Assembly: GCA_029856525.1 (NCBI GenBank)
Contig: JAHQXC010000079.1
Coordinates: forward strand, 1 to 5,237
DNA from: Candidatus Odinarchaeia archaeon
Lineage (GTDB): Archaea > Asgardarchaeota > Odinarchaeia > Odinarchaeales > Odinarchaeaceae
Length of the DNA: 5,237 nt
Reading direction: 5' to 3'
The notes below the pieces were generated by a model. That model made no database searches and was not told where the DNA came from. It worked only from the letters and a program-made list of their open reading frames with translations. The position numbers and the translations under genes are program-made. This document shows, one piece after another, positions 4,341 to 5,237 of this stretch (position 1 is its first letter; each line of letters begins with the position of its first letter).

Positions 4341-4604
4341 ATGTGCGCTAGTTTCTGGGAGAGTTCTCTATTAAAAAATAATCTTTTAACGATAATAGCT
4401 AAACATCAAGGTGTAATCTTAGATGACGAACTTTACACGATACTTAAAAAAGATTACCCCGACCTCTCATATAAAGAGTTTAACAGAATGCTAATGGAGC
4501 TTGAAATACAAGGTTTAATATATGTTTCACAAATCACAAAAACTAAACGTCGTGTTGAATTAGTGAAAGAGGGACAGGAATTTCTTGGAGTAGGGGAAGA
4601 TTAA
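4341..4604 (+). CDS. Small winged-helix protein of unknown function, 87 aa
   Basis: Three predicted helices followed by a beta-wing (SYKEFNRMLMELEIQGLIYVSQITKTKRRVELV). GGAG RBS at 4326-4329 overlaps the cdc48 stop. It resembles small wHTH proteins I recall next to cdc48 in TACK archaea. Confidence 0.75.
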   Translation: MCASFWESSLLKNNLLTIIAKHQGVILDDELYTILKKDYPDLSYKEFNRMLMELEIQGLIYVSQITKTKRRVELVKEGQEFLGVGED

Positions 4605-4665: not shown

Positions 4666-4827
4666 ATGCCGATAACAGATCCTGATAAAAAATATATTGC
4701 AGCCCATTCGCTACTCTATGTTAACATATGCAGGAAGTGTGGTGCCCGTAACCCTTTAAATAATAAGAAGTGTAGAAATTGCAGGTCTTCTTCACTTAGA
4801 CCTAAAAAGCGTGAAATAGGTAAGTAA
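4666..4827 (+). CDS. rpl40e: 50S ribosomal protein L40e, 53 aa (not in ORF track)
   Basis: MPITDPDKKYIAAHSLLYVNICRKCGARNPLNNKKCRNCRSSSLRPKKREIGK*: ICRKCGARNP...KCR.C...LRPK signature. AGGTGG RBS at 4655-4660. Confidence 0.96.
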   Translation: MPITDPDKKYIAAHSLLYVNICRKCGARNPLNNKKCRNCRSSSLRPKKREIGK

Positions 4828-4890
4828 ATGTGCGCTTATATTAAAATGAGTCTTTTCAAAAAACTTATAATTTTTATAGTTTTCGAAATC

Positions 4891-5009
4891 GGGCGGGTGG
4901 TCTAGGGGTTATGACGCCGCCCTCACACGGCGGAGATTAAAGTATTTAAACCGCAGATAAATCATAAGTTTAGCGGTGTTCGGGGGTTCGAAACCCTCCC
5001 CGCCCACCA
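4891..5009 (+). tRNA. tRNA-Val(CAC), CCA encoded, with 43 nt of intron sequence at noncanonical position 45/46 (exons 4891-4935 and 4979-5009)
   Basis: Acceptor stem GGGCGGG/CCCGCCC + A + CCA; D arm GTCT-AGGGGTTA-TGAC; anticodon arm CCGCC-CT CAC AC-GGCGG; T arm GGGGG-TTCGAAA-CCCTC. Joining the exons gives exactly 76 nt with variable loop AGTTC. Confidence 0.92.
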
Positions 5010-5109
5010 CCCTACAGCTAAATTTTAAAATCGTAAACAAAAAACTTAATAATGTTTTAATCTCGTATAAATTTCATTAATTTGATTATGCTTTTACCGG
5101 GATGGTTTT

Positions 5110-5237
5110 ATGATAGATTATAATGATCCTCGCCGTGAAGAATATGTACAGAATGTTTTGAAAATAATCCAGGAGAAAAAGTTGAAATTCGTCCGCTTAC
5201 AGTTCATTGATATCAATGGAGTGGTTAAAAGCTTCGC
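5110..5237 (+). CDS. glnA: Glutamine synthetase (type I), N-terminal fragment running off the window
   Basis: MIDYNDPRREEYVQNVLKIIQEKKLKFVRLQFIDINGVVKSF matches the GS N-terminal V...I.E..VKFVRLQF.DI.G..K pattern; only 42 codons are visible. Confidence 0.85.
   Translation, partial: MIDYNDPRREEYVQNVLKIIQEKKLKFVRLQFIDINGVVKSF

What the first reader, a model, noticed from the sequence alone, without database searches (positions are those of the whole stretch)
4930..4981. tRNA-Val(CAC) with two tandem mini-introns at the same site (45/46) sharing one helix strand, implying obligate ordered splicing
Seen in sequence: I tested all five 43-nt intron registers (starts 4934-4938) and none gives a complementary 4-bp central helix; for 4936-4978 it would be GCGG facing GCGG. 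A two-step model fits. Downstream intron A (4957-4978, 22 nt): H = CCGC(4951-54)/GCGG(4973-76), bulges AG^A and TG^T, inner stem TAAAT/GTTTA with loop CATAA. After A is removed, upstream intron B (4936-4956, 21 nt): H = GCGG(4930-33)/CCGC(4951-54), bulges AG^A and AG^T, inner stem TTAAA/TTT(A)AA with loop GTA. The same CCGCAG acts as the 5' helix+bulge for A and the 3' helix+bulge for B. Cutting B first would leave GCGG opposite GCGG, an unspliceable dead end. In the precursor, 4930-33 can stay in the anticodon stem, which favours A first. Established: archaeal endonucleases cut after the second nucleotide of each 3-nt bulge, and multi-intron and noncanonical-position tRNAs are known, mainly in Thermoproteales. 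Inference: intron A was inserted exactly at intron B's 3' cut site. Both introns start AT(T)AAA and are nearly the same size, which looks like a snapshot of intron gain. The exon-side helices are only about 1 bp (relaxed HBh'), implying a broad-specificity endonuclease.
Basis: partly seen in the sequence, partly recalled or inferred. Interest (0 to 1): 0.8.

Follow-up and report, generated by a model that had tools for sequence, protein, structure and literature searches.

The report
Two abutting introns in tRNA-Val
A valine tRNA gene of an Asgard (Odinarchaeia) archaeon holds two tiny protein-spliced introns placed end to end that use the same four bases for their cutting motifs, so the downstream one apparently has to go first; this is a neat, conserved variant of the already known ordered splicing of multi-intron archaeal tRNAs.

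Summary
Window 4891-5009 is the only tRNA-Val(CAC) gene found in this 1.32-Mb Odinarchaeia MAG, and it carries a 43-nt insert after nucleotide 45. No single bulge-helix-bulge (BHB) motif can remove the insert. The only strict route is intron A (4957-4978) first, then intron B (4936-4956). Both use CCGC 4951-54 as a helix strand, and they share the bond 4956|4957 as a cut site. Removing B first leaves an insert with no usable motif. Such a route is rare in shuffled inserts (4 of 5000). All four species of the genus keep both introns. Exons and the three helix strands are invariant, while the rest of the introns and the flanks vary. The genome encodes an alpha/beta splicing endonuclease with the broad-specificity loop, and RtcB ligase. 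There are no RNA data, so the order is inferred. A three-cut, one-ligation path is not excluded. The "snapshot of intron gain" idea is not supported, because the pair predates the split of the four species. Ordered splicing of nested archaeal tRNA introns is already in the literature. This scan had also noted the same gene in two sister genomes. Verdict: real, a new variant of a known kind, moderate interest.

The parts
4891..5009 (+). tRNA-Val(CAC) gene, including the encoded CCA (5007-5009)
   Evidence: Rfam RF00005, 49.6 bits. After the two introns are removed ARAGORN calls a 76-nt tRNA-Val(cac). Exons are 75/76 invariant in four species.
4891..4935 (+). 5' exon (nt 1-45: acceptor, D arm, anticodon arm, A44 G45)
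   Evidence: Rfam alignment; sequence read directly.
4936..4956 (+). Intron B (21 nt), upstream; predicted to be removed second
   Evidence: BHB GCGG[AG^A]...CCGC[AG^T], complete only after A is gone.
4957..4978 (+). Intron A (22 nt), downstream; predicted to be removed first
   Evidence: BHB CCGC[AG^A]...GCGG[TG^T] with a 5-bp inner stem, contiguous in the precursor. Two compensatory pairs in its hairpin among four species.
4979..5006 (+). 3' exon (U46 U47 C48, T arm, acceptor 3' strand, A73)
4930..4933 (+). GCGG: 5' strand of intron B's central helix; also nt 40-43 of the anticodon stem
   Evidence: invariant.
4951..4954 (+). CCGC: shared strand, the 3' strand of B's central helix and the 5' strand of A's
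   Evidence: Invariant in four species, while 22 of the 39 other intron columns vary.
4973..4976 (+). GCGG: 3' strand of intron A's central helix
   Evidence: invariant.
4955..4957 (+). Middle 3-nt bulge AGA. The bond 4956|4957 is A's 5' cut and, in the precursor, B's 3' cut
   Evidence: Both motifs are found in the precursor. The middle base varies (G/T/T/A) among species.
4934..4936 (+). 5' bulge of B (AG^A)
   Evidence: invariant.
4977..4979 (+). 3' bulge of A (TG^T); AA^T in one congener
4864..4878 (+). AT-rich, TATA-like stretch 13-27 nt upstream of the mature 5' end (possible archaeal promoter)
   Evidence: Read from the sequence only; not tested.

Best explanation
This is a functional tRNA-Val(CAC) gene whose variable loop, between nt 45 and 46, holds two abutting endonuclease-type (BHB) introns. 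In the primary transcript the intronic CCGC (4951-54) pairs with the downstream GCGG (4973-76), while the anticodon stem stays closed. That gives a clean BHB, which the alpha/beta splicing endonuclease cuts at 4956|4957 and 4978|4979. RtcB then joins G4956 to U4979. In the 97-nt intermediate the same CCGC pairs with exon GCGG (4930-33, borrowed from the anticodon stem). This forms the second BHB, which is cut at 4935|4936 and 4956|4979, and ligation gives a 76-nt tRNA with the variable loop AGUUC. Shown here: the motifs, their uniqueness, their conservation and the presence of the enzymes. Inferred: the cuts, the order and the ligated intermediate.
For: A-then-B is the only strict route, there is no one-step route, and B-first leaves GCGG facing GCGG. 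The route is rare in shuffles, 4 of 5000. The free MFE of the precursor contains the anticodon stem plus the CCGC/GCGG helix of A. Ensemble P(helix A) exceeds P(helix B) in all four species at 37-75 C, for example 0.56 against 0.14 for this gene at 60 C. The free MFE of the A-less intermediate contains B's helix at 37 and 70 C. All four congeners keep both introns. Exons are 75/76 invariant, intronic helix strands 8/8, other intron columns 17/39 and flanks 0/20, with Fisher p=0.003 for helix strands against the rest of the intron. There are two compensatory pairs in A's hairpin. The cut rule calibrates internally: the same rule applied to tRNA-Ala(GGC) of this genome gives AGGCC, the variable loop of the intronless Ala(CGC). 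AGUUC occurs in a natural intronless Val(CAC) gene (L068). The genome has an EndA alpha subunit (best match the A. pernix catalytic subunit 3p1z_B, with the Crenarchaea-type loop aligned), a beta-like paralogue and RtcB. No other Val(CAC) gene was found in the genome.
Against: There is no RNA evidence of any kind, because no RNA run was listed. Constrained minimum energies of the A and B folds of the precursor differ by at most about 1.1 kcal/mol and the B fold is 0.9 kcal/mol lower at 37 C, so a fraction of transcripts could enter the B-first dead end. Both motifs have exon-side helices of only 1 bp. B's inner helix is only 2 bp next to the central helix, and A's hairpin has a mismatch in one congener. 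With four sequences the covariation is not statistically strong (77 of 500 shuffles reach it). U46 is uncommon among the Val(CAC) genes seen here, which mostly read AGGUC.
Confidence: 0.75

Rival explanations
1. Same two motifs, but no ligated intermediate. EndA cuts A's two sites. Before ligation, the 5' piece ending in ...CCGCAG>p refolds into B's helix-bulge and is cut at 4935|36. RtcB then makes one ligation of the 5' exon to the 3' exon, which the tRNA body holds together. The order of cleavage still matters, but 'two full splicing cycles' is wrong.
For: After A's cuts, B's 5' site still has its central helix, bulge and inner stem, a relaxed HBh'-type motif of the kind alpha/beta enzymes with the extra loop are reported to cut (PMC5829648, PMC4090602). 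The enzyme here is of that type. The exons stay paired through the acceptor stem.
Against: RtcB ligation of the halves held in the BHB is normally thought to follow cleavage directly (my own knowledge). Nothing in the sequence distinguishes this path from the two-cycle path.
Confidence: 0.15
2. The 43 nt leave as one intron in a single step, through a recognition mode that does not need a complementary central helix. One possibility is two independent single-bulge cuts at 4935|36 and 4978|79 on alternative folds of one molecule.
For: Broad-specificity EndA can cut relaxed motifs (PMC5829648). Each outer cut site has a helix and a bulge in one of the two folds.
Against: No single BHB spans the insert. 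Each fold that presents an outer site also presents the middle site 4956|57, so the middle cut should occur as well. The internal CCGC and GCGG are invariant in four species, which is expected only if both internal helices matter.
Confidence: 0.05
3. The gene is a decaying pseudogene, or its insert is not spliced, and GUG codons are read by tRNA-Val(UAC).
For: No RNA data exist. Congeners do carry a Val(UAC) gene. ARAGORN and similar default tools miss the gene.
Against: Exons are 75/76 invariant across four species, whereas flanks are 0/20 and intron bodies 17/39. Splice motifs are preserved, with compensatory changes. It is the only Val(CAC) gene found. Most tRNA genes of this genome carry introns.
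Confidence: 0.03

Closest known systems
Nested multiple-intron pre-tRNAs of Crenarchaeota/Thermoproteales with sequential splicing (Sugahara et al. 2007 RNA; Tocchini-Valentini et al. 2009 PNAS; as summarised in PMC3978253 and PMC3728597)
   Same: There are several BHB introns in one pre-tRNA, and the last intron's complete motif exists only after another has been removed. An alpha/beta-type endonuclease handles relaxed motifs.
   Different: Here the inner intron is not inside the outer one but abuts it exactly at its 3' cut site. One 4-nt strand serves both central helices, and one phosphodiester is a cut site of both motifs. The outer intron can also form its helix and both bulges in the primary transcript, which creates a possible dead-end path. 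I could not read the two primary papers, which are not held, so I cannot say whether an identical layout is among their cases.
Single non-canonical 45/46 introns, e.g. tRNA-Thr(GGU) of Caldiarchaeum subterraneum (PMC3293823). In this clade: tRNA-Ala(GGC) of this genome and tRNA-Val(UAC) of its congeners
   Same: Same insertion site. The same use of the 3' strand of the anticodon stem (GCGG) as the exon half of the central helix. Similar size (21-28 nt).
   Different: Those genes have one intron at the site. Here a second intron sits at the first one's boundary.
Ordered processing of independent BHB motifs in Cyanidioschyzon merolae pre-tRNAs (PMC3728597)
   Same: Several BHBs in one precursor are processed in a fixed order.
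   Different: In C. merolae the motifs can all fold independently, and the order follows stability. Here the order is imposed by a shared strand.
Heavily interrupted tRNA genes of other Asgard classes (Atabeyarchaeia, Freyarchaeia/Jordiarchaeia; PMC11291895; bioRxiv 10.64898/2026.10.13.758758)
   Same: An Asgard lineage in which most tRNA genes carry non-canonical and multiple BHB introns.
   Different: Those surveys do not use the words nested, tandem, adjacent or sequential, and Odinarchaeia are not their focus.

Membership tests
Archaeal endonuclease-spliced (BHB) tRNA introns | 4-bp central helix flanked by two 3-nt bulges on opposite strands, with cuts after the second bulge nucleotide | tested here: met
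   Both A and B have 4 Watson-Crick pairs and 3-nt bulges. The cut rule was calibrated on tRNA-Ala(GGC) against Ala(CGC) of the same genome.
Archaeal endonuclease-spliced (BHB) tRNA introns | Flanking helices h (exon side) and h' (intron side); the strict hBHBh' form needs both, the relaxed forms need one | tested here: inconclusive
   A has h' 5 bp and h 1 bp. B has h' 2 bp adjacent (5 bp with a 1-nt bulge) and h 1 bp. So both are relaxed (HBh'-like), not strict.
Archaeal endonuclease-spliced (BHB) tRNA introns | Excision restores a canonical cloverleaf | tested here: met
   The 76-nt product is called tRNA-Val(cac) by ARAGORN and folds as a cloverleaf.
Archaeal endonuclease-spliced (BHB) tRNA introns | The host encodes a splicing endonuclease able to cut relaxed motifs, and an RtcB ligase | tested here: met
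   There are two PF01974 genes. The alpha subunit (188 aa) matches A. pernix EndA alpha at 6e-44 with the extra loop aligned; the beta-like paralogue (187 aa) lacks the His. RtcB is PF01139. Asgard alpha/beta EndA with the L1 loop is reported in PMC5829648.
Archaeal endonuclease-spliced (BHB) tRNA introns | Cleavage and ligation demonstrated on RNA | not testable with these tools
   No RNA run was listed for this DNA.
Nested / ordered multi-intron pre-tRNAs | Two or more BHB introns in one precursor | tested here: met
Nested / ordered multi-intron pre-tRNAs | One intron's splice motif is completed only after another intron has been removed | tested here: met
   B's motif with the exon base in its 3' bulge is not contiguous in the precursor. 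The only complete route is A then B.
Nested / ordered multi-intron pre-tRNAs | The inner intron lies inside the outer intron | tested here: inconclusive
   A lies exactly at the boundary between B and the 3' exon, not inside B. It does interrupt B's BHB motif at its cut site.
Nested / ordered multi-intron pre-tRNAs | Sequential processing observed in vitro or in vivo | not testable with these tools
   This needs an EndA/RtcB assay or tRNA sequencing.

The most novel reading that the evidence does not exclude
The exact abutment, with intron A sitting on the very bond that EndA cuts at intron B's 3' end, is a footprint of how archaeal tRNA introns are gained. In this reading a free excised intron was ligated by RtcB into a pre-tRNA opened by EndA (reverse splicing) and then copied back into DNA. 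If so, abutting pairs like this one would make the long-open question of BHB-intron gain testable. They should be enriched at EndA cut sites across intron-rich Asgard and Thermoproteales genomes.
Probability: 0.1. Interest if true: 0.7.

Novelty: new variant of a known kind. Interest (0 to 1): 0.4.

Why it matters
It is a compact natural substrate, 119 nt with three cut sites and one shared strand, for asking how the archaeal splicing endonuclease and RtcB handle competing motifs. It could also show whether splicing order is set kinetically by RNA folding, and what happens to mis-ordered products. The case shows that intron-rich tRNA genes in Odinarchaeia are missed or mis-read by default tRNA finders. 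The position of the second intron, on the first one's cut site, is a small clue about how such introns are gained. It does not change the known picture, because ordered splicing of multi-intron archaeal pre-tRNAs is established.

Tried and rejected
1) RNA evidence: no RNA holder was listed for window 4700-5237, so I did not use read laying. 2) One-step excision: no strict or one-G-U BHB spans the insert. The other single motifs near it would delete stem nucleotides. 3) Copies of intron A or B elsewhere in the genome (blastn-short): only short AT-rich chance matches. The best one (C123, 13 nt) lies in non-tRNA sequence. A first attempt with fuzzy regex timed out. 4) B-only or A-only alleles: an exact-pattern scan of the conserved anticodon arm in metagenome contigs and in one genome per species found 59 loci. 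Only two were Odinarchaeota, both already known congeners with both introns; all the others were intronless genes of other archaea. 5) Homology of B to the variable-region intron of the sister family (G004-G006), or to the Ala(GGC) or Val(UAC) introns: the sequences are too short and AT-rich to decide. The register of the sister family's intron is itself ambiguous, 43/44 or 45/46. 6) The primary papers (Tocchini-Valentini 2009, 2011; Sugahara 2007) are not held, so I relied on two papers that summarise them. 7) Minimum-energy comparison as proof of order: rejected as decisive, because the constrained energies differ by at most about 1.1 kcal/mol and their sign changes with temperature. Ensemble probabilities are more consistent, but they ignore tertiary structure and proteins.

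Full report
WHAT IS THERE. The window is contig C18:1-5237 of a 1.32-Mb, 127-contig archaeal MAG with 38.5% G+C and about 93% completeness. The Rfam tRNA model matches 4891-5006 at 49.6 bits, with about 45 nt left unaligned between nucleotide 45 and the T arm. Default ARAGORN reports no tRNA. Read directly, the gene has these parts:
- acceptor stem 4891-97 / 4999-5005
- D arm
- anticodon stem 4917-21 / 4929-33, anticodon CAC
- A44 G45 (4934-35)
- a 43-nt insert (4936-4978)
- UUC (4979-81)
- T arm 4982-98
- A73 and an encoded CCA (5007-09)

Upstream genes are a geranylgeranyl-reductase-like flavoprotein, aEF-1beta and a CDC48-type AAA ATPase. Orthologous contigs in the public genome collection are titled Candidatus Odinarchaeota (L105 and L108 are the contigs of G001 and G003). 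The organism is therefore an Odinarchaeia (Asgard) archaeon.

CHECK OF THE OBSERVATION. I wrote a scanner for bulge-helix-bulge motifs: a 4-bp helix, 3-nt bulges and cuts after the second bulge base. With it I searched for every way of removing the insert.
- No single motif does it, even with one G-U allowed.
- Exactly one strict route exists. Intron A (4957-4978) goes first: CCGC 4951-54 pairs with GCGG 4973-76, with bulges AG^A and TG^T and a 5-bp inner stem.
- Intron B (4936-4956) goes second: exon GCGG 4930-33 pairs with the same CCGC, with bulges AG^A and AG^T.
- B's helix and both bulges can also form in the precursor, where the third base of its 3' bulge is A4957. The bond 4956|4957 therefore belongs to both motifs.
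- If B is taken out first, the remaining 22 nt face GCGG with GCGG and no route is left.
- Among 5000 shuffles of the insert, 4 had any strict route of two steps or fewer. One had a two-step route with both inner helices of 2 bp or more.

All coordinates and elements in the finding are correct. The cut rule calibrates within this genome. Applied to tRNA-Ala(GGC) (C73), which has one 28-nt intron at the same site using the same GCGG/CCGC helix, it gives the variable loop AGGCC. That is identical to the loop of the intronless tRNA-Ala(CGC).

COMPARATIVE EVIDENCE. Three other species of the same genus carry the orthologous gene, and all have both introns. Column conservation across the four species:
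- exon columns invariant: 75 of 76
- intronic helix-strand columns (CCGC and GCGG) invariant: 8 of 8
- other intron columns invariant: 17 of 39
- flank columns invariant: 0 of 20
- Fisher p = 0.003 for helix strands against the rest of the intron

The middle base of the shared bulge varies (G/T/T/A), and the 3' bulge is TGT or AAT. Intron A's hairpin shows two compensatory pairs (A-U to G-C, and U-G to C-G or U-A). With only four sequences this covariation is not statistically strong, since 77 of 500 shuffles reach it. The same A-then-B route gives the identical 76-nt product in the congeners.

In the sister family of the order (G004-G006), Val(CAC) has an anticodon-loop intron plus a single 16-17-nt intron in the variable region, whose register is ambiguous. 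In the congeners the paralogous Val(UAC) has a single 21-nt intron at 45/46. The site is thus a recurrent intron position in this clade, and the doubled state is specific to, and old within, this genus. A scan of the conserved anticodon arm through metagenome contigs and one genome per species found no further Odinarchaeia alleles. All other archaea had intronless genes, mostly with AGGUC, and one had AGUUC, the junction predicted here.

MECHANISM. The genome has two PF01974 endonuclease genes.
- One (188 aa) matches the catalytic alpha subunit of Aeropyrum pernix EndA at 6e-44. It has the Tyr, His and Lys context, and the Crenarchaea-type extra loop is aligned.
- The other (187 aa) is beta-like and lacks the His.
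- RtcB is present.

Kaneta et al. reported that Asgard archaea have the alpha/beta enzyme with the L1 loop, which confers broad substrate specificity (PMC5829648). This fits the 1-bp exon-side helices of both motifs.

Folding supports A-first but does not prove it.
- The free minimum-energy fold of the precursor keeps the anticodon stem and pairs CCGC with the downstream GCGG.
- In the ensemble, helix A is more probable than helix B in all four species at 37, 60 and 75 C. For this gene the values are 0.56 against 0.14 at 60 C.
- After A is removed, the free minimum-energy fold contains helix B at 37 and 70 C.
- The constrained minimum energies of the two precursor folds differ by at most about 1.1 kcal/mol. 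At 37 C the B fold is 0.9 kcal/mol lower.

Some flux into the dead end cannot be excluded. Tertiary structure and proteins are not modelled.

I also cannot exclude a path with three cuts and one ligation. After A's two cuts, the 5' piece could refold and be cut at B's 5' site before any ligation. Order of cleavage would still matter, but there would be no ligated intermediate. No public RNA run holds this DNA, so the cuts, the order and the intermediate are all inferred.

The "snapshot of intron gain" does not hold. The pair is shared by four species whose intron bodies and flanks have diverged, so the gain predates their split. I found no sequence relation between A and B and no other copy of either in the genome. 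That B is the older intron is a reasonable inference: A cannot be spliced without B's CCGC, and single introns at this site are common in the clade. It is still only an inference.

COMPARISON WITH WHAT IS KNOWN. Two papers state that in some archaeal pre-tRNAs the introns are nested, and that the last intron can form its BHB only after the others have been processed (PMC3978253, PMC3728597). Both cite Sugahara et al. 2007 and Tocchini-Valentini et al. 2009. Ordered splicing is therefore a known kind.

What differs here is the layout. The second intron abuts the first exactly at its cut bond. One 4-nt strand serves both central helices. The outer intron can be cut prematurely. I could not read the primary papers, which are not held, so I cannot exclude that an identical layout is among their cases. 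Recent surveys of Asgard tRNA introns (PMC11291895; bioRxiv 10.64898/2026.10.13.758758) concern other classes, and the preprint does not use the words nested, tandem, adjacent or sequential.

Among about 13 intron-bearing tRNA genes of this genome that my scanner resolved, this is the only one with a motif that is not contiguous in the precursor. Some of those resolutions are doubtful. This scan had already noted the same gene in two sister genomes, and a follow-up there reached the same verdict. My tests were run independently on this window.

VERDICT. The feature is real, conserved and almost certainly functional. The two-intron, shared-strand reading is well supported in silico, and the order is likely but unproven. 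It is a new variant of a known kind and of moderate interest.

Noticed in passing
G000 contigs listed (e.g. C71:10389-10534, C5:342-474, C97:4171-4303, C48:9331-9459): Most of the 28 tRNA hits of this genome are 96-146 nt long and carry one to several non-canonical BHB introns. Only 28 tRNA genes reach the Rfam-based search, so many more are probably too interrupted to be found. Several of my automatic resolutions (e.g. C124 as Phe-aaa, C77:3199 as Ser-gct) look wrong and need manual work.
   Followed up: partly
G000:C73:4029-4128 (minus strand): tRNA-Ala(GGC) has one 28-nt intron at 45/46 using the same GCGG/CCGC central helix as intron B. Its 3' half resembles the intron B of congener G003 (...GATTTAAAC(A)CCGCAA). 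This could mean intron transfer between tRNA genes that share the anticodon-stem sequence, or it could be chance in AT-rich sequence.
   Followed up: partly
L120, L121, L122 (G001:C1:178840-178980, G002:C1:283100-283240, G003:C72:5220-5360, minus strands): The three congeners have a tRNA-Val(UAC) gene with a single 21-nt intron at 45/46. No such gene was found in this MAG, which may be an assembly gap.
   Followed up: partly
L043, L047, L048 (G005, G004, G006; sister family of the order): Their tRNA-Val(CAC) has a 29-nt intron within the anticodon loop and a 16-17-nt intron in the variable region. That intron's central helix either has a G-A mismatch (45/46 register) or is perfect but lacks flanking helices (43/44 register).
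   Followed up: partly
window 5110-5237 (+): An open frame starts at ATG 5110 and runs off the window. By eye its N-terminus looks like glutamine synthetase, but Pfam gave no hit on the 42-aa fragment.
   Followed up: no
window 4341-4604 (+): An 87-aa ORF between the CDC48-type ATPase gene and the tRNA has no Pfam match.
   Followed up: no
other contigs of G000 (earlier notes): First-stage notes report BHB-type introns inside protein-coding genes (gcvPA, kae1) and tRNA genes with three or four introns in this same genome. I did not check them.
   Followed up: no
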